Shown here: positions 9,347-64,000 of the stretch, piece after piece
Position numbering within the stretch: the first letter of the stretch is position 1
How the letters are laid out: each line of letters begins with the position of its first letter
Source of the DNA: a virus
Taxonomy: Duplodnaviria; Caudoviricetes
Direction: 5' to 3' (one strand)
IMG/VR virus record: IMGVR_UViG_2595698521_000001
Span: 29,840 to 93,839 of that record
DNA length: 64,000 bases
Made by a program: the position numbers and the translations under genes
The notes under the pieces: model-generated
What the model was told of the DNA's origin: nothing
What the model saw: the letters and a program-made list of their open reading frames with translations, nothing else
Databases searched by the model: none

Positions 9347-9631
9347 TTATTCGTATCCTACAATTGTAGTTTGTGTTACTGGCTTTATTTCTCTTTCAGT
9401 ATACCCATATCCGCTACATATGTCACAAGGCTTATAGTCTCTTCCTTCTTGGTATACCCATCCACTGTCCGGAAGTCCTGTAGGGTACTTATTATATGTA
9501 GTATAAGTTTCCCCTTCCCCTTTACATTTAGGACATTCATATTGACGTAGACCTTGTACATATGCGACTAAATCCTCTAAAGTAATATTTCCGTAAGTTG
9601 CAAGTAGTCGTTTGGCTTCTTTAATTTTCAT
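9347..9631 (-). CDS. DnaJ-type zinc-finger small protein
   Basis: CPKCKGEG...CDICSGYG. Confidence 0.7.
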   Translation of the reverse strand: MKIKEAKRLLATYGNITLEDLVAYVQGLRQYECPKCKGEGETYTTYNKYPTGLPDSGWVYQEGRDYKPCDICSGYGYTEREIKPVTQTTIVGYE

Positions 9632-10075: not shown

Positions 10076-10618
10076 TTATTTAGTTGTTGCTTTCTTACGT
10101 GTAGCTTTCTTCTTAGTTGCTTTCTTTTTCGGTTTTTCTTCAACCGCTTCTTTTTGATCACCGGAAGTTTCGATTTCTACTCCCTCGGAAGTTTCTTCTT
10201 CGTTAACACTGATTCCATCTCCGGAAAGGTTAACTACTAATTTATCTCCCGCTTTCATGTTAGCACGAATTGAATCTATGTCAATTCCGTCTTCTGAAGC
10301 AGGTAATCCCATACCTACACGAGTGATAATTTGCATAAACTCGGTATCTTCCAAAACTTTCTCCGGAAAATCAAGATTATGCTCAATATGGTTTTTAACG
10401 TATGCTTCTTTACGTGCTAAATCCCATTTCTTCATTAATTCAAATTGTAAGTCGTCTTTCGGGAATGAAACTTTAACCGGAGTTGTTCCGTTTGTCATTC
10501 CGATAGAAACAGCATTAGCTCCTTCATTGAATGTAAACATTTGATATTCTGTTTCATCCAAACCAAAACGATTAATCATAACTTCAGTTGCAATGTCTAA
10601 CATTTGATTCTCTGCCAT
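10076..10618 (-). CDS. Hypothetical protein with a KKAT-repeat basic tail
   Basis: C-terminal KKKATKKKATRKKATTK. Confidence 0.65.
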   Translation of the reverse strand: MAENQMLDIATEVMINRFGLDETEYQMFTFNEGANAVSIGMTNGTTPVKVSFPKDDLQFELMKKWDLARKEAYVKNHIEHNLDFPEKVLEDTEFMQIITRVGMGLPASEDGIDIDSIRANMKAGDKLVVNLSGDGISVNEEETSEGVEIETSGDQKEAVEEKPKKKATKKKATRKKATTK

Positions 10619-10639
10619 TATAGTTTCCCCATTTCTACT

Positions 10640-10834
10640 TTACTTAGTTTTATATTTATTTTCTAAAGCTTCGATTGTATCACTATCAATTAATAGGTAT
10701 CTACTTCTCTCCGCTTCTGTAACCATATCTTTGTAATGCTTTTGACTTACAGTTGCTACATCTCCGGCTTTGCCTACTTTTTCAAGAGCTTTCCAAAGTT
10801 TAAATGCAACTAGTTCCCAGTTAGTAGTTTTCAT
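10640..10834 (-). CDS. Hypothetical protein
   Basis: TAATG coupling to the upstream gene. Confidence 0.6.
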   Translation of the reverse strand: MKTTNWELVAFKLWKALEKVGKAGDVATVSQKHYKDMVTEAERSRYLLIDSDTIEALENKYKTK

Positions 10835-11157
10835 TACTTACCCTCATTTCTCGCAATTGAAGCATTAGCCCAAAATACAGCATTGTCGATATGTTTTAGT
10901 GCTTCTATAAATTCAACACTCCACTCCGGACAAAGCTCTGTAAGCTTCAAAGCAAACTCTTTCCCTGCTTCACGAATTTCACCGTATTTCTCCGGTTGTC
11001 CTTCTTTTGGCGGGTGGTAAGTAAATCTATTTTCAATAATGTTGCGTGTACTAGCTTTTGGGTCAAATCTAAATGTATCATCAGCGATAAGACCTACTGT
11101 AGTGCTTTTTGCGTTTAATGTGTATACTCCATCCTTTTCCATAGTACTAACCTCCAT
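10834..11157 (-). CDS. Acb2/Tad1-hairpin-like protein (candidate immune-signal sponge)
   Basis: NRFTYHPPKEGQPEKY..IRE..KEFAL.L.ELCP...AL.HIDNAVFWANASIARN matches, from memory, the Acb2/Tad1 hairpin family pattern. Confidence 0.6.
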   Translation of the reverse strand: MEVSTMEKDGVYTLNAKSTTVGLIADDTFRFDPKASTRNIIENRFTYHPPKEGQPEKYGEIREAGKEFALKLTELCPEWSVEFIEALKHIDNAVFWANASIARNEGK

Positions 11158-11482
11158 ATTTTGCGTTAATTGTTTCTAATGCTTCCCAAATCTTTTCCGA
11201 AAAGTCGGTGCTTGCGATAGACCATCCTTGACGGATATTACATTCTTTAGCAACTGCGCAATACGCTTCAATTTGCTCCATAGAATATAATCGTTTGCTA
11301 CCGTTACGGAAAATAGCGGGCGGTGTTACTCCGCTACTCTCCCATTTACGGATAGTTTGAGCATCACGAGGGAAGCCCATTTCTGTTAATTCGCTGACTA
11401 ATCTACTAATCGGATATAACACAACTTCCTCCCCGTTAATGTTATATACTCGACCATCCTCTTTTAAAGGCATAAATATCAC
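11147..11482 (-). CDS. MerR-like HTH DNA-binding protein
   Basis: QTIRKWESSG..PP..RNGSKRLYSMEQI. Confidence 0.75.
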   Translation of the reverse strand: MIFMPLKEDGRVYNINGEEVVLYPISRLVSELTEMGFPRDAQTIRKWESSGVTPPAIFRNGSKRLYSMEQIEAYCAVAKECNIRQGWSIASTDFSEKIWEALETINAKYGG

Positions 11483-12054
11483 TCCTGTTCTTGTTGTAGC
11501 TTCTTATCATCAATGTACGCCATTGCATAATTTATGTTGATATCGCATAATTCCTCAAATTCATTCATTGGAATTACTTCGCTTGTAACTAACTGCTCAA
11601 TTGCGCTCTCATCAATTACCTCAATCTTTTCTAATAGATGTGGAGCATGTTCTGCTAAAACATCCAATACCTGCTCGTCCGTAACGTCTGAAGCAATAAC
11701 TTCTTTGTTACTCACTACTTTTTTAAGTAGCTTTTTCTTTTTAAGGTAGGCTTTCGCTCTTTCCTCATTTAAAGTAATTTTCTTACGTGCTTGTCTTTGC
11801 AGGTGAATTTTGTTCCCTTCACTATCAACCGTAGTAAATAGGAAGTGTCCGCTTGTATCCGGCTTGAACGTTTTCTCCATGAAAGTTCCTAATTCATTCT
11901 TTAGTTCTGTTTCACGTCCGCCTAAAAGTTTCAATTGTTGTTTTACACGGTATAGTTCTAATTGCTTGTTCTGCATTTCTGCTACATCAATCTTATCTTC
12001 CTTTTTCTTTTTAGACGTTCCCAGTTTAATTTTCTTGCGCTTGATTACTGCCAT
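11479..12054 (-). CDS. Hypothetical coiled-coil protein
   Basis: Start MAVIKRKK follows the RBS GGAGG; first gene after the promoter near 12125. Confidence 0.65.
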   Translation of the reverse strand: MAVIKRKKIKLGTSKKKKEDKIDVAEMQNKQLELYRVKQQLKLLGGRETELKNELGTFMEKTFKPDTSGHFLFTTVDSEGNKIHLQRQARKKITLNEERAKAYLKKKKLLKKVVSNKEVIASDVTDEQVLDVLAEHAPHLLEKIEVIDESAIEQLVTSEVIPMNEFEELCDININYAMAYIDDKKLQQEQE

Positions 12055-12108
12055 GTTTTTCGTCCCCTCCGAAAAGTTACTTTGTATTAGTAACAATAGA
12101 TTATCATT

Positions 12109-12456
12109 TTAGTTGGTAAAAGTCAAATCATTAATTGGTAATAGTTTTGTGTTTTTGTACGGGTTTCCGAACGTTTCATTCCAATGCTCTTTAGAACAAA
12201 AGTGAAGTTGTCCGTCATATTGGATAATTTCAAACTTGTCTTTGCTAAGATATCCAAGTACCGTTTCGTTCTTTCCTTCTATCATTCCAATAGTAACGAA
12301 TACATGGTTACTAATCTCTTCCGGCAACATTTCTTGACCGAACTCATATACAATTCGATTTATGTCTCGAATCTCTCCTTCTTCCTGTAAAACGAATTGT
12401 ACTCTTTCTGCAATTTTTTCTAAGTATGGTTTCATAATTTCTTGTTTGATTTTCAT
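12109..12456 (-). CDS. Hypothetical protein
   Basis: RBS GGAGGT before MKIKQ. Confidence 0.6.
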   Translation of the reverse strand: MKIKQEIMKPYLEKIAERVQFVLQEEGEIRDINRIVYEFGQEMLPEEISNHVFVTIGMIEGKNETVLGYLSKDKFEIIQYDGQLHFCSKEHWNETFGNPYKNTKLLPINDLTFTN

Positions 12457-12484
12457 TAAAATTACCTCCAATTTTTATACCTGC

Positions 12485-12535
12485 TCAGTATATATTATAT
12501 ATAATTATTATTTATTATTTATAAAGATATACTGA
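12485..12535. repeat. AT-rich element, copy 1 (TCAGTATATATTATATATA...ATATACTGA)
   Basis: The 19-bp core is identical to copies at 33056-33108, 52055-52100 and 63905-63951. Confidence 0.8.
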
Positions 12536-12539
12536 CAGC

Positions 12540-14165
12540 CTACTTTTTAAATTTTCCCCATCCTCTTCTTGGTTGTTTCTTAGTTGGGAGTTTTAGTTCT
12601 TCACCTATTACAGTGAACTTTCTAGTTTTGTAAACTTTGTCTCTTTTCTTCCCGTGATTCTTAGCAACGGAAACATGCGGGAAACGATAGTCATATATCT
12701 TACAATCAGACTTTCCAGTTTTGGTTCTACGACATCTACCGATAGCTTGAATAGTATCTTTCTCATTTGCAACTGTAGACGCTAAGAAACCACGTTCCCA
12801 CGCTTTAACGTTTGTCCCTTCCGTAGCGATTGAATACGTAGCGATTGTAATTAATACTTCTTTATCCTCCGCTCGTTTCTTCATTACTTCTTTAGGAGTT
12901 TTTGAATCTCCATAATACAACTGAATTTGCTCTGCGGGAACACCACGTTTAATTAGTGTTTCTTCTATTACTCTACAATGTTCTTTTTCGTGCGTGAATA
13001 CAATGCAAGACTTACCTTGTTTGTATTCCGCTATTACATCAGTAGTTAGCATTCTGTTAAATCTATCGTTGAAAGAAATTACTTTGCGCACTTCACTAAT
13101 AGTAACGTTCTTAGGATGCACTTTCTTTTTAAATTGGTCAAATATGTCTTCCCCGAAAACTTCCTCAACCTCTTCTTCAGAGAACGGATCACCTTCCATC
13201 ATGCGGTTATATAGTTCATCGTCCCATCCACCGCTATTGTGGAGAATGTCTGATATCTCTGAACGGTACTTTTTCATAACTTCATAGTGTCGCTTGTATT
13301 CCCATTCCATCGGTACGTTTTTAATAACTATTGTTGCCGGAAGAATATCCTCATCATCTTTATCTTCTATGAATTCGAATACTTTCTTTCCGAAATGATG
13401 ATATAGAACTTTTTCAAGTCCATCAGTTCTCATTGCAGTAGCAGTTAACCCTATTTTGAATCGTGCAGGGAAATAGCTTAATGCTTTATAAATGTTAGCG
13501 ACTGAATGGTGAAACTCATCAACTATTATCATGCCGAAGAAGTCTTTAATCTTATCAATCTTTTCCGGAGATAATCGGGACAATGTTTGTATAGTCGTAA
13601 CAGTTATTTGTTTCCCGAATCTGAAGTCTTTACCTTTTATCAATCCGACTTCTTTCGGTTTCATTCCGAAAATAACTTTAGCGTCCTGCGTCCAACCATC
13701 AACTAAGTCATCTTTATGTACAATGACTAATGCTCTTTGTGAGAATTTGCGGGCTAAGTACAGTCCTAATATTGATTTTCCTTTACCCGTTGGTAAAATA
13801 ATTACTCCATTCTCATCTTTGTCTTCCAAATATGCTTTCAAGTATGCTTCAGACGCTTGTTTTTGGGTATCACGCAATTCTATCCGCAATTTCGGATATT
13901 CTACTCCATAATTGATTAACCGCTCATCTGACGTAACTTCATAAGGGAAAGGTATCGTGTAACTTCTTGGAACTAATACTCTTCCTCCAATACCTTCTTC
14001 ATAGTACTGAATATAAGGTGGTATCTTGCCTACCCCATATCTACTATGACGTTTAGCACTTTTATATGCGGGATTATCAAATGTTAGGTCTTCTTTAATT
14101 GCCACTAATTCATCCTCGGTACAGTTAGATATAATTTTTACTCCGCTAAGTTCTACTTTTATCAA
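12540..14165 (-). CDS. Superfamily 2 DExH helicase
   Basis: LPTGKGKS, IIVDEFHH, GLTAT, ATEGTN and QAIGRCRR; likely TTG start at 14165 after AAGGAGG. Confidence 0.92.
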   Translation of the reverse strand: MIKVELSGVKIISNCTEDELVAIKEDLTFDNPAYKSAKRHSRYGVGKIPPYIQYYEEGIGGRVLVPRSYTIPFPYEVTSDERLINYGVEYPKLRIELRDTQKQASEAYLKAYLEDKDENGVIILPTGKGKSILGLYLARKFSQRALVIVHKDDLVDGWTQDAKVIFGMKPKEVGLIKGKDFRFGKQITVTTIQTLSRLSPEKIDKIKDFFGMIIVDEFHHSVANIYKALSYFPARFKIGLTATAMRTDGLEKVLYHHFGKKVFEFIEDKDDEDILPATIVIKNVPMEWEYKRHYEVMKKYRSEISDILHNSGGWDDELYNRMMEGDPFSEEEVEEVFGEDIFDQFKKKVHPKNVTISEVRKVISFNDRFNRMLTTDVIAEYKQGKSCIVFTHEKEHCRVIEETLIKRGVPAEQIQLYYGDSKTPKEVMKKRAEDKEVLITIATYSIATEGTNVKAWERGFLASTVANEKDTIQAIGRCRRTKTGKSDCKIYDYRFPHVSVAKNHGKKRDKVYKTRKFTVIGEELKLPTKKQPRRGWGKFKK

Positions 14166-46759: not shown

Positions 46760-47259
46760 TTTTCCTCACCCGCTCCTTCGATATCTTTTACAATCCAGTC
46801 CACTATACGTGCATATGATATTAAATCTCTATAGATGTATTGGTTTAGTTCTTTGTCCGCAAAATCTACAGCAATACCATTAGGTTTCCCGAATACGGAG
46901 TATCCATTTCCGGCACTTCCTCCATTATGACCTAATAACTTAGCTCTTTCTATCGCTTTCTTGCGTCCTTCTTTTCTGTATACATCTCTAATTGTTATTA
47001 CGTTGTTCCGGAATCTCCATTCAATGAGCTTCTGCATATCCTTCTCATCATCGAACTTTCTAATATCCGGCTTTTCGTTGCGCTCAATCACCCGTGCAAT
47101 GATTTCATCTTGCGTTGGGAATCGTGCAGGTGGGAAGACTTCTTTGTGTTCTACCTTCTTTTCTACTTTAACGGTCTTCTTTATCCGTTTTATTTTCAAT
47201 AATAACAGCTCCTTTAGTTGGTATAAGTACATTTTATCATTGGTAAAAGTAGCGGTCAA
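46684..47259 (-). CDS. Hypothetical protein
   Basis: ORF after the promoter near 47260; the start codon is uncertain. Confidence 0.55.
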   Translation of the reverse strand: MTATFTNDKMYLYQLKELLLLKIKRIKKTVKVEKKVEHKEVFPPARFPTQDEIIARVIERNEKPDIRKFDDEKDMQKLIEWRFRNNVITIRDVYRKEGRKKAIERAKLLGHNGGSAGNGYSVFGKPNGIAVDFADKELNQYIYRDLISYARIVDWIVKDIEGAGEEKCQSKEKPKLKIKRKPKLKLKRKTK

Positions 47260-47286
47260 ATCAAGAAAAGACGGTATCTCTACCGT

Positions 47287-52100: not shown

Positions 52101-52216
52101 ATCATACCTAGAACAAGATCACCGAATAATGCGATTAGGGATAGAAGTGCAGTTATGATAAACCACACTCTATTCTCCTTCTCTTCTTTAGCTTTCATTA
52201 CTTCATAGTTCCACAT
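52085..52216 (-). CDS. Small membrane protein (43 aa, not in the ORF track)
   Basis: MWNYEVMK...VWFIITALLSLIALFG; overlaps the upstream stop codon. Confidence 0.55.
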   Translation of the reverse strand: MWNYEVMKAKEEKENRVWFIITALLSLIALFGDLVLGMIRYIF

Positions 52217-53214
52217 CATTTCTTTAGTCCTCGCTCCAATACTTTTCCGGCTTGTACTTCCACCTCTAAGCGTTGGTCGAACGGTAAAGACTGACTTGCA
52301 TGTGTCATAGCGTTAACCACGTGGAACAGGCTATCTCCGTACTCTGAATTTAGACTTGATTTAAGCGTGTCTTCAAATTTCTTCGAGTACTTTTCTTTCT
52401 TCGCTAATTCCTCAATCATCTTCATAGGGTTATCAATACGTACATCTTTTGAGCGGGCGAATTTATCAACTACTTCGTCACCGATTTGCATAGCTTTTCC
52501 GATAGCAGTTGCAACTCGTCCCTCCATTTCATTCTGCGTAAGGTGGATATGACGTTGCATCATTAAGCTTTCCCCATTAATTCTGCTCACCATTCCGTTC
52601 TCACATACAAGACGATAGATACATGAATCAATTCGTAAAGAACTTGCTCCTACCTCACTGTTAGTAATGTGTACTCCTACAAATACATCGTCACGGTTTT
52701 GTAGACTTCCGATATTGACGTTTAACTGCGGGAATAACAACCGTACATTGAAATGTGTAGGTGATAAGTCAAAGTTACTAATTCGTACAGCAGAACCTCT
52801 ATCCAGTACGTTATCTAGCATATTAAATACGAAACTATTATCAAGCTGTACGTATTTATCAGAAAGTAGACCACGTAACTCTCTTCCTTTAGTACGTAAC
52901 ATCCAATCTTTATCTTCCGGCTGTTCTCGTAACCAATAATTTATATTCTCCGCTAATAACTGCGGGCTTTGTTCCATTAACTTCTTAGCATATTTAACAG
53001 GTACTCCAAGACGTGTCGCTAATTGACCTAAAGCGTAATCGTTCGGGTTCAGGTTATTAATTAATGTAGATGGCATAAACTTATCTTCCGCAATTGCTCC
53101 CGTGCTTGTCATAGTTAAAGCTTTAGGATTCATAGTAAAGTCTTGCTTACCAATATCATCATTTTGGACAACTTCAATTACGTCCGTCCATTTTCTTTCC
53201 CCACGTAGATTCAT
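52216..53214 (-). CDS. DUF932-family protein
   Basis: RGLLSDKY..LDN, G.HITNSEVG.SSL, YRLVCENG and L.HVVNAMT. Confidence 0.8.
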   Translation of the reverse strand: MNLRGERKWTDVIEVVQNDDIGKQDFTMNPKALTMTSTGAIAEDKFMPSTLINNLNPNDYALGQLATRLGVPVKYAKKLMEQSPQLLAENINYWLREQPEDKDWMLRTKGRELRGLLSDKYVQLDNSFVFNMLDNVLDRGSAVRISNFDLSPTHFNVRLLFPQLNVNIGSLQNRDDVFVGVHITNSEVGASSLRIDSCIYRLVCENGMVSRINGESLMMQRHIHLTQNEMEGRVATAIGKAMQIGDEVVDKFARSKDVRIDNPMKMIEELAKKEKYSKKFEDTLKSSLNSEYGDSLFHVVNAMTHASQSLPFDQRLEVEVQAGKVLERGLKK

Positions 53215-53373
53215 ATTTTATTCCTCCTAGTTATGTTGGTGTGTTGCTTACGAGATTCATATTACAGCATTAGTTGGTAATAGTCAAATTGTTAGTTGGT
53301 AGAAGTAAAGTGGACCGATTTTTATACCTGATAAAAGTTAAATTACATTACCATCATATCCTTAAAAATGGAC

Positions 53374-53457
53374 AAAGAAAAAGAACGTCCTGTGCGGGGA
53401 CGCTCTGATTCTAAAAAGATAACAACATATTATTTAATAGTATAGCTTTCGCTACCC
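53374..53457 (-). ncRNA. Putative small RNA, unit 3
   Basis: 5' GGGUAGC-GAAA-GCUAUACUA, a variable middle, then terminator AGAGCGUCC..GGACGUUCU plus U tract. Confidence 0.6.
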
Positions 53458-53494
53458 AACAATTACTATACTACTAATTTATATCCGGTTATCA

Positions 53495-53570
53495 GAGAGA
53501 AAGAGTCCATTTTGTGAACTCTAACTTTAAGTGTAGGAATGTGTTTGTTTTAGTATGGATTGCTCCACCC
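53495..53570 (-). ncRNA. Putative small RNA, unit 2
   Basis: 5' GGGUGGA-GCAA-UCCAUACUA, promoter TTGCTC-N17-TAGAAT, and hairpin AGAGUUCA..UGGACUCU plus UUCUCU. Confidence 0.6.
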
Positions 53571-53594
53571 GAAATGTATTCTACTATAAATGCA

Positions 53595-53680
53595 GAAAAA
53601 GAGCAACCATCCCTGTAATGGTTACTCAATTCCTACGAAAACAAAAGGTTTATTTTATTTTAGTATGGCTTTCGCCACCC
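53595..53680 (-). ncRNA. Putative small RNA, unit 1
   Basis: 5' GGGUGGC-GAAA-GCCAUACUA, promoter TTTACA-N17-TAAACT, and terminator GAGUAACCAU..AUGGUUGCUC plus UUUUU. Confidence 0.65.
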
Positions 53681-53689
53681 ACGTATAGT

Positions 53690-54013
53690 TTACTTGATGC
53701 TGTTCTTTTTGTAAAGGTAATCAATATATCCGATGATGTTCTGAATCTTATTAGCTAACATAAACACGCTACCTAATTTAACTCGCTCATCTTCAGTAAA
53801 TGTTAACACTTTACTTTTAACAAGGTTCGCTCCTGTAACATCCACTTCATTTAGATGTGCTGTTAATAGTGTACGATATCCACGTAATTCACCGACATTT
53901 TTCCCTTCAAAGAAAGTCGCTACTTCAAAGAAAGGCATATCAATCAGTTCTTTTGTAGACTCTACAGCCAACTTCATATCCGATTGCGCTTGCTTCAGTT
54001 CTTCTTTATTCAT
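53690..54013 (-). CDS. Hypothetical helical protein immediately upstream of the sRNA array
   Basis: RBS AGGAGGT; its stop codon lies 10 nt before unit 1. Confidence 0.7.
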   Translation of the reverse strand: MNKEELKQAQSDMKLAVESTKELIDMPFFEVATFFEGKNVGELRGYRTLLTAHLNEVDVTGANLVKSKVLTFTEDERVKLGSVFMLANKIQNIIGYIDYLYKKNSIK

Positions 54014-54094: not shown

Positions 54095-54641
54095 TTAGTG
54101 TAAAGTTTCTTCTTCAGCTACAACTCTAAAAATACCATTCTCTACTACTATTGCGTATTTTAAATTAGAAACATTCACTACACTATTCTCCGGTACTTGA
54201 AACTCACCATCGAACTGTGTATGTGCAATATAAGCTAACACACTTTCTAATGCATTAGCTCTTATTGTCTCTGTATTGCGTTCCTGCTCCAAACGTTTTA
54301 CCTGGTCTTCCAACATCTTTATCTTCATATTAATAATGCTATCGTGGAAGCTCATCTTTTATATCCTCTACCGCAATAACATACTCATCTATTTCTTCAT
54401 AAGTAACAAGCTTTGTATTTTTCGGCATCCCTTCCATTATTAATTGATTAGGGATTCTTATTTCTCTTTGTGGGTTAGAATTAGCGATAATGCCAATAAT
54501 AGCAAGAGCATTTTCATAATTTTCCTCCGCTTTCTGTCTAGCTCTCTTTTCCTCTGCAATTCTTTCACGTAATGCCTTGGATTCACTTTCCCACATTTCA
54601 GACGGGTGTTTATACATGTTCATTTCTCCTTTGCGCAACAT
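54095..54641 (-). CDS. Two tandem paralogous small proteins (54095-54355, 54339-54641)
   Basis: Both have a coiled coil, then (N)AL..(I/V)...IA, then E(F/I).(V/I)P. Confidence 0.55.
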
Positions 54642-55033
54642 ATTTCATCGTGCGTGAATTTAATAGAAGGATTCTCTGCCGCAATTCTTTGCATAGCTCT
54701 AAATAGTTCCCAAAACATAGAGTCATGTTCCTTACCATCTTCAGCAAGGCGTTTCCAAAAAGGAATATAGCAATGCTGAATATGATGAGTTAGTTCATGA
54801 AGTCCTTCACGAATTAATACCGATTCATCATATTGATCACCGTTTTCGTCACGGTCATATATAACAATAAGTCTTTTATTTACATAGTATCTTGCCCAAT
54901 AATCTTCGCTATGTCCCCAAAACTCTAAATGAAAATCTCCTATATCGGAAATCTTTAAGAGTTTGTTGTATAGCTCCTGTTCCGTCATGCTGTTTTCAAC
55001 CCTTTCCGAATAATTGTTTCTCCTTATCTTCAA
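54620..55033 (-). CDS. Zincin-like metallopeptidase domain protein
   Basis: LHELTHH...EHDSMFW (HExxH plus H..F). Confidence 0.7.
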   Translation of the reverse strand: MKIRRNNYSERVENSMTEQELYNKLLKISDIGDFHLEFWGHSEDYWARYYVNKRLIVIYDRDENGDQYDESVLIREGLHELTHHIQHCYIPFWKRLAEDGKEHDSMFWELFRAMQRIAAENPSIKFTHDEICCAKEK

Positions 55034-55352
55034 TAAACTTTTCTATTATAGATATAGCTCTATCCTGCGTTTTACCACACTGTATTGATTCGGGCGTTAC
55101 TTGTTCCAATAAACTCATTACTTTCTCCAACTTACTTAATGGTACATGAACCATAACTTCCTGCTTCAGTTCGTGCGGTTGCATTTTAAAGTAGCTACAT
55201 AATTTAGCTTCATAATCCATAGGAATTGTTTTAGGGTCTTCTAACCACATTATAAACTCGTCCCTTTCAACTCCTAAATGTCTAGCTTGTACTTGCGCTG
55301 TAATTCCTCTTGCATCACCGAATTGTCTTGCTCGTGCTTCTAATAGATACAT
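54996..55352 (-). CDS. Possible Cro/C1-type HTH protein
   Basis: ARHLGVER..FIMWLE...P......KLCSYF; it has its own promoter. Confidence 0.5.
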   Translation of the reverse strand: MYLLEARARQFGDARGITAQVQARHLGVERDEFIMWLEDPKTIPMDYEAKLCSYFKMQPHELKQEVMVHVPLSKLEKVMSLLEQVTPESIQCGKTQDRAISIIEKFIEDKEKQLFGKG

Positions 55353-58052: not shown

Positions 58053-59100
58053 TTTCGTTCCCCTTTTCTACATTATTTAGTGTTCCCGACCCGTTCCCGA
58101 TGATGGCGAATAGACCCTACTTTACCCAAAACTTCAAAAATCGGCTGTTGCTAGGCACGGTTTTTCGGGTGTATTTCCCAATTAAGGGTGGGTAGGGTTT
58201 TTTCTAGGTCGTGGGGTAATTGGATTTTGTATCGGCATCCCCTCCCCCTAGTTAACGTCCCCACTATGTCCCACGGAATGGCTCGGCATGAGTAGGAGCA
58301 GAGCGGGCGGGCGTGTCGGGTGGTGCGCTCGGCTCGGTGTGCGTGTGGTGCGTGTGCGCTGTGCGTGGTGTGCATGGGCGCATGGCATGGAGCAGAGCAG
58401 TCATTCTTTATTTATTTCTTGAACAAAATCATTTGCATATATTATATAGAACAGACCTTATATTAATGCTCCCCTATATGATATGTATATGCGCTGTAAC
58501 TACTCATATTGTACATAATTAGTTGGTAATAGTCAAATCATATATTGGTAATAGTAGAACCCACCCACCTTTCCGTATATAAGGCGGTTTAATACCGGGG
58601 CTATAATAAGGGGCTATATAGAAGGGCTTATATGCACCCACCTATTCGAATCGTATATAAGGCGGATATAGTACCCGTTATATGGCTTCCCTATATGGCG
58701 TTCCCTACTAAGTCCCTATATACACCTTTCATTCCGGTTTCCTTTGCGCATTAATCTTTCACCCACCGTTCCACTCTGCACCTTCGCTTATATAACACCC
58801 GTATATAACGTTCCCGTATATACCTTTTTCTTTTCCCGAATCGTTTCCTCTGCACCGACCTGTTTTTCTCCGAATTTGAGGCTTCCTTTTGAGTACCATA
58901 GAAGCAGTCCCACCTAATGCTGTTTACTGGGCGGGATTACTGGGCGCACCTTTGTATACTGTTCCCTCGGATTGTCCCATGATTCTCTCTGCACCGCAGT
59001 TCCCTTTTTATTGAACTAAGAAAAGATCACCTTAGAACGTTATTAATTTCTGCGGTCATAGAAACCTAAAACGCAAATAAAAAAGGAAGGGAATTAATCC
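58053..59100. other. 1-kb non-coding block with a GC-rich strand-biased tract and phased TATAT repeats (candidate terminus/pac site or origin)
   Basis: No credible ORF; composition differs sharply from the rest of the window. Confidence 0.5.
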
Positions 59101-59814: not shown

Positions 59815-59914
59815 AATAAAATCGCTCCTTTATATTTAGTTATCAATGTTCATCGGGAAATTATCCCTACAACAAATATATCATTTTAGTTGGTAATAGT
59901 AAAGAAAAACATAT

Positions 59915-59930
59915 TGTTTCATGTGAAACA
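59915..59930. promoter_or_regulatory. parS: parS site (Spo0J/ParB binding)
   Basis: TGTTTCATGTGAAACA, one mismatch to the B. subtilis consensus TGTTNCACGTGAAACA. Confidence 0.8.
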
Positions 59931-60032
59931 TTAATAGTTTAGTTGGTAGAAGTAGAATTGCTACTTACTTTAAGTTAGTTACTAACTGATCAATAGTGGA
60001 CTAATAGACAAAATAAAAAAGACTAGGTTTCC

Positions 60033-60641: not shown

Positions 60642-60774
60642 AATAAAACAGCTCCCTTTTATATAGTTGTCAATGTTCGTGCGGAACGTTATCCGCATTA
60701 ATAATGTATCATTTTAGTTGGTAAAAGTAAAGTGGTAAGTTGATAAAAGTTCATTTAATGCAAAGAAAAAGCAC

Positions 60775-60977
60775 TCATCTATTTTGAGTGCCTTTGAAAA
60801 GTAATGTGTATGAGATTGTGAAAATTAATAATCCACCTAATAAAGTTAGTCCTGCGTTTAGCACGATTACCACCTCCCTTATTTAATGATGTAGTGACTA
60901 AGCAACCAAATCATTATACATGAAGACGTAATTCCAATCAACCAAGTCCAGTACATATCCTCTGTCTCTTTACTCAT
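60775..60977 (-). CDS. Two tiny single-TM peptides (60879-60977, 32 aa; 60775-60864, 29 aa), not in the ORF track
   Basis: MSKETEDMYWTWLIGITSSCIMIWLLSHYIIK and (GTG)LNAGLTLLGGLLIFTISYTLLFKGTQNR, each with an RBS. Confidence 0.55.
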
Positions 60978-61312
60978 ACTAATGCCAACTCTCCTTTCCG
61001 CTTATATTTCCGGCTTTTAGATTTATCAAATTCCTCTACCGCATTATGTATAGAGCAGTAGTAATGAAGTGCCAAATGTTTTAGGAAGTCCATTACATGT
61101 ACACCCTCTTCTAAACTATATACTTCTGCTCTTATTCTCGCCTTGTCTCTTGCGTCAAATTCTTCCGCAACCGTATAGAGGAATTCATAGTTATTTACCA
61201 CTACCGTTTTGCTTCCGCTACCGTCCAGTTTCTTCAAAAAGAACCACCACTTCTCTTCCTTCGGGATGTTGCTACCCATCTTGAAGAACATTACCTGCAT
61301 AAACTCGTCCAT
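60974..61312 (-). CDS. Hypothetical early protein
   Basis: RBS GGTGA; in a cassette. Confidence 0.6.
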   Translation of the reverse strand: MDEFMQVMFFKMGSNIPKEEKWWFFLKKLDGSGSKTVVVNNYEFLYTVAEEFDARDKARIRAEVYSLEEGVHVMDFLKHLALHYYCSIHNAVEEFDKSKSRKYKRKGELALV

Positions 61313-61694: not shown

Positions 61695-61795
61695 AGCTCA
61701 CACGCTCCTTATATTTTATTTTCAATGTACAATCGGGAACATTTTCCCTACTTCTTATTATACGGATTACTTGGTAAAAGTAAAGAAAAACTTTA

Positions 61796-62374: not shown

Positions 62375-62621
62375 GCTCCCTTTTCATATTTGGTTTTCAA
62401 TGATTACGGGTAACTTGTTCCCGTACTTAAATTATAAGGGATAGGAATATTCTTGTAAACATAATTTTCTCAATATTTATATTTTTAGTTGGTAATAGTA
62501 AAATGGTTAATTGGTAAAAGTGGCGAAATCCGGATCATAAGAATTTTACTACTTACTTTTTGTTAGTTACTTCCTGATCAATAGTGAGTATCTGTTTTTG
62601 GACAAATAAAAAAGGAAGCTC

Positions 62622-63332: not shown

Positions 63333-63556
63333 AATAAAATCTCTCCTTTGGGTTATATGTAATTTTCAATGTGCTTTTTCCTGTCCCTCATTGGGATAAC
63401 TCAATATTAATTGATAAAAGTTTAAATTGCAAGCATTATTTTAAAAGTTTTCGACAAAATTACTTGGTAAAAGTGAAATTGCAACAAAGGAAACTGTCCC
63501 TATAATGAAGAAACATACAACAAGGGAAAAATTTAATAGTGAAGGAGCTGTTCTGC

Positions 63557-63904: not shown

Positions 63905-63951
63905 TCAGTATATAATAAATAATTAAAAGAACTATATATAATATATACTGA
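63905..63951. repeat. AT-rich element, copy 4 (inverted)
   Basis: Contains TATATATAATATATACTGA with TCAGTATAT at the other end. Confidence 0.8.
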
Positions 63952-64000
63952 ACACCTTTTATTTTAGTTGGTAAAAGTGCATGAAAAAAGACCTGTATTT

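What the first reader, a model, noticed from the sequence alone, without database searches (positions are those of the whole stretch)
53374..53720. Tandem array of three self-contained small RNA genes sharing a covarying 5' GNRA hairpin
Seen: three 20-nt repeats at 53438-53457, 53551-53570 and 53661-53680 (periods 113 and 110 nt). On the minus strand they read GGGUAGC-GAAA-GCUAUACUA, GGGUGGA-GCAA-UCCAUACUA and GGGUGGC-GAAA-GCCAUACUA. The stems differ only by compensatory pair changes, the loops stay GNRA, and the GG...ACUA flanks are invariant. Each repeat starts 6-7 nt after a -10 hexamer (TAAACT, TAGAAT, TATAGT); two also have a -35 at 17 bp. Each is followed by an A-rich linker, an unrelated ~30-nt middle, and its own terminator hairpin with a U tract. 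There is no ORF. Inference: ~76-86-nt RNAs with a constant protein-binding handle and a variable guide or decoy segment, i.e. a possible phage RNA-guided silencing, antitoxin-mimic or anti-defence system. The flanking 107-aa ORF and the DUF932 protein are candidate partners. The middles of units 1 and 2 also have an 8-nt complementarity (GUAGGAAU/AUUCCUAC). I do not recognise this as CRISPR, TIGR or ToxI.
Basis: partly seen in the sequence, partly recalled or inferred. Interest (0 to 1): 0.85.

Follow-up and report, generated by a model that had tools for sequence, protein, structure and literature searches.

The report
Three sibling small RNAs in phage
An uncultivated 94-kb phage carries three neighbouring mini-genes for short non-coding RNAs that share only a small hairpin at their start; the pattern is real and matches no described RNA family, but its function and expression remain untested.

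Summary
The minus strand carries three copies of a 20-nt module (53661-53680, 53551-53570, 53438-53457). Each reads GG, a 5-bp stem, a GNRA loop, then ACUA. These are the only copies in the whole 93.8-kb virus record. Each sits 6-7 nt after a TAnnnT hexamer and 48-53 nt before its own intrinsic terminator.

Only the module is conserved: 75-90% identity, against 52-67% for the rest of each unit, which is the random level. All five variable columns are two compensated stem pairs plus the N of GNRA. A conserved G-U pair marks the minus-strand RNA as the folded species.

I found no Rfam match, no tRNA and no ORF. No copy turned up in IMG/VR scans, 18 related virus records, 88 loci, or phage and plasmid BLAST.

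Best reading (0.45): three separately made, stable sibling sRNAs of about 77-88 nt, with a selected 5' protein-binding or protective handle and a free variable middle.

Rivals are nut-like gated terminator cassettes, a CRISPR-repeat mimic (unit B's handle ends in the Cas13a motif ACUAAAAC) and a relic. Function, partner protein and expression are untested. The DNA of the closest relatives could not be fetched.

The parts
53687..53715 (-). Promoter-like site of unit A (TTTACA-17-TAAACT), inside the 3' end of the 107-aa ORF
   Evidence: 9 of 12 matches. Consensus match only, and such matches are no commoner here than in shuffles.
53661..53680 (-). Handle A: GG, stem GUGGC/GCCAU, loop GAAA, then ACUA
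   Evidence: -7.5 kcal/mol on the minus strand, -4.7 on the plus strand.
53628..53660 (-). Variable middle of unit A, A/U-rich. It is predicted to fold back on its own A-rich linker.
   Evidence: No phage target.
53593..53627 (-). Terminator A: 11-bp stem, 5-nt loop, U tract. It also ends the upstream 107-aa operon.
   Evidence: -15.0 kcal/mol.
53578..53583 (-). -10-like hexamer TAGAAT of unit B, 7 nt before GGG; weak -35 TTGCTC at 53601-53606
   Evidence: Read. It did not pass the scan.
53551..53570 (-). Handle B: GG, stem GUGGA/UCCAU, loop GCAA, then ACUA; followed by AAAC
53523..53550 (-). Variable middle of unit B
   Evidence: In the relative from run X1 the sequence beyond 53546 does not fit the window (table 7).
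53494..53522 (-). Terminator B: 8-bp stem with an interrupted U tract; the weakest of the three
   Evidence: -8.1 kcal/mol.
53465..53470 (-). -10-like hexamer TATAGT of unit C, 7 nt before GGG; no -35
   Evidence: Read. It did not pass the scan.
53438..53457 (-). Handle C: GG, stem GUAGC/GCUAU, loop GAAA, then ACUA
53407..53437 (-). Variable middle of unit C
53374..53406 (-). Terminator C: 9-bp stem, 7-nt loop, U tract
   Evidence: -13.0 kcal/mol.
53418..53493 (-). Imperfect 28-nt palindrome around handle C. In a read-through RNA it would replace the handle hairpin with a 13-bp stem.
   Evidence: (I1).: -23.7 against -10.4 +/- 2.5 kcal/mol, 0 of 500 shuffles. 2 of 100 shuffles of the whole region hold a window as stable.
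53259..53287 (-). Context: the DUF932 gene's own promoter (TTGACT-17-TAATAT), carrying the phage's TACCAACTAA motif twice. The gene therefore does not need the array for transcription.
53690..54013 (-). Context: upstream 107-aa ORF; its stop codon lies 9 nt before handle A
52216..53214 (-). Context: downstream DUF932 gene

Best explanation
The array is three paralogous ('sibling') small non-coding RNA genes of an uncultivated ~94-kb myovirus. Its host is probably in the Bacillales.

Each unit is transcribed on the minus strand from its own weak vegetative-type promoter. Transcription starts at or next to the conserved GGG and stops at the unit's own intrinsic terminator. The products would be RNAs of about 88, 77 and 84 nt.

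The only part under selection is the 5'-terminal module: two G, a 5-bp stem closed by a conserved G-U pair, a GNRA tetraloop, then ACUA.

I propose the module does two jobs. As a hairpin within 2 nt of the 5' end, it shields the RNA from 5'-end-dependent decay. Together with the 3' terminator hairpin, that would make a very stable RNA. It is also the recognition site for one shared protein, which reads the invariant lower stem and flanks but only the shape of the upper stem.

The 25-33-nt A/U-rich middle is free to differ. It is the working end, acting by base pairing or as a decoy.

Shown: the repeats, the fold, the compensated changes, the strand, the terminators, and the lack of coding capacity or any known family.

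Inferred: transcription starts, separate transcripts, stability, a protein partner, and action in trans.
For: - Three copies and no others in the 93.8-kb genome.
- Hairpins and terminators are predicted in each unit. Unit fold z-scores are -4.66, -2.93 and -3.08.
- Terminator-like sites: 4 in the 1.5-kb region against 0.7 +/- 0.7 in shuffles.
- Handle identity is 75-90%. Upstream 40 nt, middle and terminator are 52-67%, which equals the random level of 57 +/- 5%.
- The 5 variable handle columns are positions 5/14, 7/12 and loop N, and every stem cell pairs. My rough count puts such a layout at about 8e-5 under free drift. This is a crude model, not a test.
- The stem has 5 pairs on the minus strand and 4 on the plus strand because of the conserved G-U pair. 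The U tracts are on the minus strand only.
- A TAnnnT hexamer sits 6-7 nt before each GGG.
- DUF932 has its own promoter after terminator C, so the units are not its leader.
- The phage's early region is built from short promoter-to-terminator units, so stand-alone mini-units fit its style.
- No ORF, tRNA or Rfam family.
Against: - There are no expression data of any kind.
- Promoters B and C are a -10 hexamer only. They fail the consensus scan, and promoter-like matches in this DNA are no more frequent than in shuffles.
- With three sequences the covariation shuffle control is weak: 49 of 500 shuffles do as well.
- The handle was not found in 18 related virus records, and DUF932 genes of distant relatives have no array in the five upstream regions printed. 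Conservation beyond one lineage is therefore unshown.
- No target of the middles appears in the phage above a shuffled null.
- No partner protein was identified.
- Known sibling sRNAs usually share their seed, not a 5' hairpin (recalled).
- The palindrome around unit C suggests that read-through RNA or a DNA-binding regulator matters too.
Confidence: 0.45

Rival explanations
1. Cis-acting gated terminators. Each unit would be a promoter, a nut-like site and a terminator. The GNRA hairpin plus the A-rich box after it would be bound in the nascent RNA by a phage or host antitermination factor, as lambda N binds boxB. RNA polymerase would then read through terminators A, B and C into DUF932 and the genes beyond. 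Without the factor, only short abortive RNAs are made. A simpler version is a triple terminator that insulates the upstream early operon, with the hairpin serving as a processing or pause site.
For: - The hairpin has a 5-bp stem and a GNRA loop, the shape recalled for boxB.
- It always lies between a promoter-like site and a terminator 48-53 nt downstream.
- The variable middle need not be conserved under this model.
- Handle A lies 9 nt after the stop codon of the 107-aa ORF, so terminator A ends that operon anyway.
- The same phage has five early leaders with a 5' hairpin followed by CATTGANAAY. There are 6 matches in the window against 1.56 expected, and 0 of 100 shuffles reach 6. The handle's CAUACUAAAAY looks loosely like that box.
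- The palindrome around unit C only matters in read-through RNA.
Against: - DUF932 has its own promoter of the phage's standard type directly after terminator C, so read-through is not needed.
- No N-like or other antiterminator was recognised.
- The fixed 6-7-nt distance from the -10 hexamer puts the hairpin at the very 5' end. That matters for a stable RNA, not for a nut site.
- The three handles are far more alike than the five leader hairpins are to each other.
Confidence: 0.22
2. CRISPR-repeat mimic (an RNA anti-CRISPR of the Racr or Cracr kind). The handle would copy the repeat of the host's CRISPR system, and the three RNAs would be ready-made, non-targeting crRNA look-alikes that soak up the Cas effector. 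The layout is closest to type VI-A: a repeat hairpin, then ACUAAAAC, then a spacer-length stretch.
For: - Unit B reads hairpin + ACUAAAAC, unit A reads ACUAAAAU, and 24-29 variable nt follow.
- The Leptotrichia Cas13a crRNA printed in a paper is a 5' flank, a hairpin, ACUAAAAC, then a 28-nt spacer (passages).
- ACUAAAAC in papers is mostly Cas13a crRNA (listing).
- VI-A uses the repeat-then-guide order, and an overexpressed non-targeting crRNA cut Cas13b phage defence about 1000-fold (passages).
- Phage solitary repeat units and multi-unit Cracr arrays are known (passage; section 7).
- Selection on stem shape plus the 3' flank is what repeat recognition would give.
Against: - The resemblance is 8 nt of A-rich sequence, and I picked it from memory among many repeat types.
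- Unit C reads ACUAUUAA.
- The loop is 4 nt, against 9 in that crRNA.
- No Rfam CRISPR-DR family matches.
- No matching repeat was found in phage or plasmid records.
- The endolysin is nearest to those of Geobacillus-group phages. From recall, Cas13a is not typical of such hosts.
- Neighbouring genes have no recognised Acr or Aca family.
Confidence: 0.1
3. No RNA function. The repeats would be a DNA-level site (operator, iteron or recombination site) or decaying copies of a duplicated promoter-terminator cassette that happen to keep a hairpin.
For: - The core is a DNA palindrome (TGGC-N4-GCCA and variants).
- A larger palindrome surrounds unit C.
- The phage is full of short promoter-to-terminator cassettes that could lose their ORF.
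- The element is absent from the more distant relatives.
Against: - A dimeric DNA-binding protein would keep its half-site bases. It would not change both halves in step, as seen here.
- The conserved G-U pair makes the stem strand-specific.
- The rest of each unit has drifted to the random level while the handle has not, which argues for selection on the handle.
- The 110-113-nt spacing is unlike iterons (recalled).
Confidence: 0.13

Closest known systems
Phage RNA anti-CRISPRs (Racr solitary repeat units) and Cracr arrays
   Same: Small non-coding RNAs encoded by phages outside any cas locus, sometimes several in a row, built from a structured constant part plus a short variable part (passage; section 7).
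   Different: Those were found by sequence likeness to a known CRISPR repeat or CreA/CreR RNA. No such likeness could be shown here. Cracr arrays look like CRISPR arrays, whereas here each unit has its own -10 hexamer and terminator and the period is 110-113 nt. SRUs were reported for all CRISPR types except VI.
Cas13a (type VI-A) crRNA
   Same: The order 5' hairpin, ACUAAAAC, then about 28 variable nt. Unit B has the exact 8-mer and unit A differs in its last base.
   Different: A tetraloop instead of a 9-nt loop, a different stem and 5' flank, a terminator hairpin at the 3' end, a deviating unit C, and no cas13 or array nearby.
Lambda-type nut sites (boxB hairpin bound by N); recalled
   Same: A phage RNA hairpin with a 5-bp stem and a GNRA-type loop, placed between a promoter and a terminator.
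   Different: No boxA of the usual kind, no N-like protein recognised, the hairpin lies at the extreme 5' end, there are three copies in tandem, and the downstream gene has its own promoter.
Tandem sibling sRNAs such as Listeria LhrC1-4; recalled
   Same: Several paralogous sRNA genes side by side, each with its own promoter and terminator and about 80-110 nt long.
   Different: Known siblings are alike over most of their length and share the seed. Here only the 5' hairpin module is shared and the rest is at the random level.
ToxI-type antitoxin RNA arrays (type III toxin-antitoxin); recalled
   Same: Tandem RNA repeats in a phage-defence setting.
   Different: ToxI repeats are complete 36-nt units, head to tail, under one promoter, next to a ToxN gene. 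Here only 20 nt repeat, with terminators in between and no ToxN-like neighbour.

Membership tests
Any Rfam family (release 15) | Score at or above the family's gathering threshold | tested here: not met
   0 matches at gathering thresholds in the whole window. The best sub-threshold matches are terminator look-alikes: sbrA 18.9 bits against 45, ctRNA_pT181 19.1 against 56.
CRISPR array | Regular full-length repeats separated by spacers of similar length, without terminators between them, usually next to cas genes | tested here: not met
   Only 20 nt repeat, the periods are 113 and 110 nt, and a terminator lies in every interval. No Cas effector family was seen among the proteins scanned. One Cas4-domain exonuclease PHROG hit lies far away.
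Racr / Cracr (phage crRNA mimics) | Sequence or structure likeness to the CRISPR repeat of the host's system | not testable with these tools
   The host is unknown. Partial checks were negative: no Rfam CRISPR-DR match and only chance BLAST hits in phages and plasmids.
Racr / Cracr (phage crRNA mimics) | Encoded on a mobile element outside a cas locus and expressed as a small RNA | tested here: inconclusive
   The location is met: a virus record with no cas locus seen. Expression is only predicted from -10 hexamers and terminators.
Type VI-A crRNA | Repeat hairpin followed by the conserved 3' flank (ACUAAAAC in the Leptotrichia example), then the guide | tested here: inconclusive
   The flank is exact in 1 of 3 units, off by one base in 1 of 3 and off by four in 1 of 3. 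Loop length and stem differ.
ToxI-like type III antitoxin | Head-to-tail repeats of the whole RNA unit upstream of a ToxN-type endoribonuclease gene | tested here: not met
   Units are alike only in the 20-nt handle. The neighbours are DUF932 and an ORFan.
Lambda-type nut / boxB antitermination site | GNRA-fold hairpin in nascent RNA upstream of a terminator | tested here: met
   A 5-bp stem with GAAA, GCAA or GAAA loops lies 48-53 nt before each terminator. This is a shape match only.
Lambda-type nut / boxB antitermination site | A cognate antiterminator protein and read-through of the terminators | not testable with these tools
   No family hit among the early proteins. Read-through needs RNA data.
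Sibling sRNAs | Two or more paralogous sRNA genes with their own promoters and terminators | tested here: inconclusive
   Terminators are met in 3 of 3 units. A promoter passes the scan in 1 of 3, and only a -10 hexamer is present in 2 of 3. No transcripts are known.

The most novel reading that the evidence does not exclude
The three RNAs are ready-made crRNA look-alikes for a type VI-A-like (Cas13a) or other host CRISPR effector. Each would be made from its own promoter in mature form (hairpin, ACUAAAAY flank, spacer-length tail) and capped by a terminator. Together they would flood the effector with non-targeting guides. This would be the first RNA anti-CRISPR for the one CRISPR type in which the Racr survey found none. 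It would also be a new architecture, with separate mini-genes instead of a repeat array.
Probability: 0.08. Interest if true: 0.85.

Novelty: new variant of a known kind. Interest (0 to 1): 0.5.

Why it matters
Phage small RNAs are few and mostly known from model phages. Here a sequence pattern alone gives fair evidence of selection on an RNA structure in an uncultivated phage. The design is a shared 5' hairpin handle with free middles, one promoter and one terminator per unit. Neither known sibling sRNAs nor known phage crRNA mimics are built this way.

If the handle is a protein-binding site, the partner (host or phage) could be fished out with a 20-nt bait. If it mimics a CRISPR repeat, it extends RNA anti-CRISPRs to a new type. 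If it is a nut-like site, it would be a rare case of hairpin-dependent antitermination in a phage of Gram-positive bacteria.

The value is limited for now. The element is known from one lineage only, and there is no expression evidence.

Tried and rejected
Relatives:
- BLAST of the 2.2-kb region against isolated phages found nothing.
- DUF932 has 31 homologues. One is 92% identical on a 94,820-base contig and eighteen are 46-55% identical.
- The search for related loci with the DUF932 alignment gave only distant loci. IMG/VR gave 19 loci at 34% or less. Metagenomes gave 36, the best being 49% on a 1.1-kb contig. Genomes gave 16, all Eremiobacterota-type MAGs at 27-33%.
- The major capsid protein gave 46 IMG/VR loci. 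Of the 18 records I searched whole, 9 hold DUF932. None holds the handle; the best E-value outside the own genome is 0.17.
- The five upstream regions I printed show a different gene and a single terminator. A script scan for GNRA hairpins upstream of DUF932 in 9 loci found nothing repeated.
- The covariance model run over 88 further loci gave 2 hits at E = 2.9, in an unrelated AT-rich repeat.

Pattern scans of IMG/VR:
- The strict handle gave 14 stretches, all single, coding-like, with no stem or context.
- The two-copy pattern gave 3 stretches, none relevant.
- The looser handle gave 42 matches. 7 could form the stem and 0 had a promoter or terminator context.

Sequencing runs:
- One DNA run was listed (X1, word share 0.08) and no RNA holder was listed.
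- Laid at 80% likeness, five short contigs fit.
- One 151-nt contig lies on 53546-53682 with 4 other letters and 1 gap. The tool places only two of these differences (53577 T>A, and a T put in behind 53652). The other three are near the contig ends and may lie in handles A or B, so I cannot say whether the handles are unchanged.
- That contig's first 10 letters do not fit beyond 53546.
- 53329-53523 had no cover. That is no evidence either way.

Targets:
- BLAST of the middles against the genome gave a best antisense match of 13 nt at E = 0.024.
- Duplex energies against 136 start regions were best at -18.2, -15.4 and -18.8 kcal/mol. Shuffled nulls were -17.7 +/- 2.1, -17.6 +/- 2.1 and -18.1 +/- 1.8. 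I rejected these as evidence.
- The array against phages at E up to 10 gave 6 records, all at E = 4.
- The pairing of A's middle with B's handle is -11.7 against -7.0 +/- 2.2; 14 of 500 shuffles do as well, without correction for choice. I take it as weak.
- Seed-type 8-mers complementary to the handle flank are no commoner on the mRNA strand than on the other strand.

Partners:
- Pfam and PHROGs on the neighbours and early proteins gave nothing beyond DUF932, a SAP domain and ORFans.
- The Atlas model of the 107-aa protein matches only unnamed helical proteins and parts of unrelated families.
- The larger ORFs are replication, nucleotide metabolism and virion proteins.
- I did not fold any protein or run complex prediction.

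Other ideas dropped:
- preQ1-I riboswitch. The loop is too short for the pseudoknot and Rfam is silent.
- Type I toxin-antitoxin. There is no small hydrophobic ORF.
- tracrRNA-like anti-repeat. Only 8 free nt are available, and the idea was recalled, not tested.
- A single-subunit RNA polymerase promoter. The spacing is not constant.

Earlier notes of this scan: a sequence look-up and a relatives look-up returned nothing.

Papers: I saw only the passages, listings and sections named in the report. Supplementary tables of the Racr and Cracr papers, which list candidate loci, were not open to me and might hold a related element.
Full report
WHAT IS THERE

The window is the right-hand 64 kb of a 93,839-base IMG/VR virus record that CheckV rates complete. 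All ORFs of 250 aa or more lie on the minus strand. The record encodes a large terminase, portal, major head protein, tail sheath and baseplate. It also encodes DNA polymerase A, RecA, ribonucleotide reductase, helicases and primase. It is therefore a myovirus-type phage.

It has no close isolate. The region finds nothing by BLAST. The DUF932, ligase and capsid proteins find only relatives under 60% identity. The endolysin is nearest (42-51%) to those of Geobacillus, Parageobacillus, Caldibacillus and Weizmannia phages. The host is probably in the Bacillales.

A 475-nt gap without a plausible ORF lies between the 107-aa ORF (53690-54013) and the DUF932 gene (52216-53214).

THE OBSERVATION

On the minus strand the gap holds GGGUGGCGAAAGCCAUACUA (53680-53661), GGGUGGAGCAAUCCAUACUA (53570-53551) and GGGUAGCGAAAGCUAUACUA (53457-53438). 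The start-to-start spacings are 110 and 113 nt.

The degenerate pattern has these 3 exact matches in the window. 0 of 100 shuffles reach the observed count of 4, which includes one 3-mismatch match at 9499. With up to 2 mismatches there is no further match in the whole genome.

Each copy folds as two unpaired G, a 5-bp stem (G-U, U-A, R-Y, G-C, M-K) and a GNRA loop, followed by ACUA.

Each is followed 48-53 nt later by a terminator-like hairpin with a U tract. The stems are 11, 8 and 9 pairs, with energies of -15.0, -8.1 and -13.0 kcal/mol. The 1.5-kb region has 4 such sites against 0.7 +/- 0.7 expected.

A TAnnnT hexamer lies 6, 7 and 7 nt before each GGG. Only the first has a -35 good enough for the consensus scan.

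From GGG to the end of the U tract the units measure 88, 77 and 84 nt.

IS IT MORE THAN CHANCE OR DRIFT?

The handles are 75-90% identical. The 40 nt upstream, the middles and the terminators are 52-67% identical after optimal alignment. That is the level of random 31-mers of this composition, 57 +/- 5%. The units are therefore old copies, or independent builds, in which only the handle has been held.

All five variable handle columns are accounted for. Positions 5/14 change G-C to A-U. Positions 7/12 change C-G to A-U. Position 9 is the free N of GNRA.

The tool's shuffle control is weak with three sequences: 49 of 500 shuffles do as well. My own rough count considers where five changes could fall and whether partners change in the same copy to the pairing base. 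It gives about 8e-5. I offer that as an order of magnitude only.

The conserved G-U pair gives a 5-bp stem on the minus strand but only 4 bp on the plus strand. The energies are -7.5, -5.4 and -5.5 on the minus strand against -4.7, -2.6 and -2.7 kcal/mol on the plus strand. The U tracts are on the minus strand. The folded species is therefore a minus-strand RNA, not a DNA palindrome read by a dimeric protein.

WHAT IT IS NOT

- No Rfam family reaches threshold in the window. Permissive scans give only terminator look-alikes.
- There is no tRNA.
- It is not a CRISPR array. Only 20 nt repeat, the period is 110-113 nt, and a terminator lies in every interval.
- It is not ToxI-like, for the same reason and for lack of a ToxN neighbour.
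- It is not the leader of DUF932. After terminator C comes a promoter of the phage's own standard type, TTGACT-17-TAATAT, with two copies of TACCAACTAA.

That motif accompanies at least eight promoter regions in the early region. It is absent from the three units.

The early region is in general a chain of short promoter-to-terminator units. Mini-units without an ORF therefore fit the phage's building style.

RELATIVES

This is the weak point of the case.

DUF932 has a 92%-identical homologue on a 94,820-base contig and eighteen more at 46-55%. The 107-aa protein has just two homologues, at 78% and 54%.

The collections I could scan hold only distant DUF932 loci. Capsid relatives gave 46 IMG/VR loci. 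In the 18 records I searched whole, 9 hold DUF932. The five upstream regions I printed show another gene and one terminator. The covariance model of the handle finds nothing there or in 88 other loci.

Three pattern scans of IMG/VR gave only chance matches.

One DNA run (coded X1, an anaerobic digester metagenome) holds a close relative as short contigs. One contig spans 53546-53682 with 4 substitutions and 1 insertion. Two of these are placed outside the handles and three are unplaced. Beyond 53546 its sequence departs from the window.

The array therefore exists in at least one near relative. Nothing can be said about compensated changes there. The element looks like an innovation of this lineage.

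HOW IT MOST LIKELY WORKS

I favour three separately made sibling sRNAs (0.45). A hairpin within two nucleotides of the 5' end and a terminator hairpin at the 3' end are the classic recipe for a long-lived RNA in Bacillus-type hosts, where decay starts from the 5' end. This is established knowledge of 5' stem-loop stabilisers, recalled.

A mere stabiliser need not keep GG, the G-U pair and ACUA invariant while the upper stem changes in step. That pattern is what a protein that reads the base of the stem and its flanks would impose.

The single-stranded A/U-rich middle would then be the variable working part. I found no target for it in the phage. Host targets cannot be examined without the host.

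RIVALS

(a) Gated terminators (0.22). The hairpin has the shape of a boxB (recalled) and always lies between a promoter-like site and a terminator. The phage has five early leaders with a 5' hairpin followed by CATTGANAAY, so hairpin-plus-box sites are part of its repertoire. A 28-nt palindrome around unit C is significant on its own: -23.7 against -10.4 +/- 2.5 kcal/mol, and 0 of 500 shuffles do as well. 2 of 100 region-wide shuffles hold a window as stable. It would remodel the handle only in read-through RNA. Against this rival, DUF932 has its own promoter and no antiterminator is recognisable.

(b) CRISPR-repeat mimic (0.10). Unit B's handle ends in ACUAAAAC and unit A's in ACUAAAAU, followed by 24-29 variable nt. 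A published Cas13a crRNA reads 5' flank, hairpin, ACUAAAAC, 28-nt spacer. Phage repeat mimics and multi-unit Cracr arrays exist. The Racr survey found solitary repeat units for every CRISPR type except VI. A non-targeting crRNA given in trans cut Cas13b defence about 1000-fold. But the likeness is eight A-rich bases that I recalled from among many repeat types, unit C deviates, the loop differs, and I could not search host repeats.

(c) Relic or DNA site (0.13). This is argued against by the selective retention of the handle and its strand-specific pair.

VERDICT

The finding is a real and fairly well-defined candidate RNA family with evidence of selection on structure. It has no known relatives, no expression data and no demonstrated function.

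It is a new variant within the known kind 'phage small RNAs'.

I score interest at 0.5. It would rise sharply if the close relatives show covariation or if a host repeat matches.

Noticed in passing
window 47231-47286, 53259-53310, 58508-58558, 59875-59960, 60711-60790, 62431-62530, 63470-63500, 63950-63990 (minus strand): A motif ACTTTTACCAACTAA / CTATTACCAACTAA, often in two copies, lies in or next to the -35 and spacer of most early promoters. It looks like a shared operator or a phage-specific promoter element. It is absent from the three small units.
   Followed up: partly
window 59839-59848, 60666-60675, 61718-61727, 62393-62402, 63362-63371 (minus strand): CATTGANAAY follows a short variable 5' hairpin in five early leaders. 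There are 6 matches in the window against 1.56 expected, and 0 of 100 shuffles reach 6. It may be a boxA-like antitermination box.
   Followed up: partly
G000 10327-12600 (minus strand; outside the window, locus L188): A 757-aa protein matches PHROG 887, 'queuine tRNA-ribosyltransferase', at E = 1.9e-151 with no Pfam hit. From recall, such DpdA/Tgt-like enzymes put 7-deazaguanine into phage DNA, so this genome may be base-modified.
   Followed up: no
window 53418-53493: A 28-nt imperfect palindrome (outer arms GATAAC...GTTATC) encloses the -10 hexamer and handle of unit C. It is far more stable than shuffles. It could be an operator or an RNase III-type stem in read-through RNA.
   Followed up: partly
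window 54620-55033 and 54996-55352 (minus strand): The 137-aa ORF carries an HELTH (HExxH) motif, and the overlapping 118-aa ORF looks like a helix-turn-helix protein by eye. They may be an ImmA/IrrE-like protease-regulator pair. Neither has a Pfam or PHROG hit.
   Followed up: no
window 58053-58758: A 706-nt stretch without an ORF holds a C/A-rich, nearly T-free tract and many TATA(T)-type short repeats.
   Followed up: no
window 60780-60980 (minus strand): Two very small ORFs with ribosome-binding sites encode hydrophobic peptides of about 30 aa each, read by eye. My 45-aa ORF cut-off missed them.
   Followed up: no
window 54095-54355 and 54339-54641 (minus strand): The 86-aa and 100-aa ORFs upstream of the 107-aa ORF look like paralogues of each other by eye. 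I did not align them.
   Followed up: no
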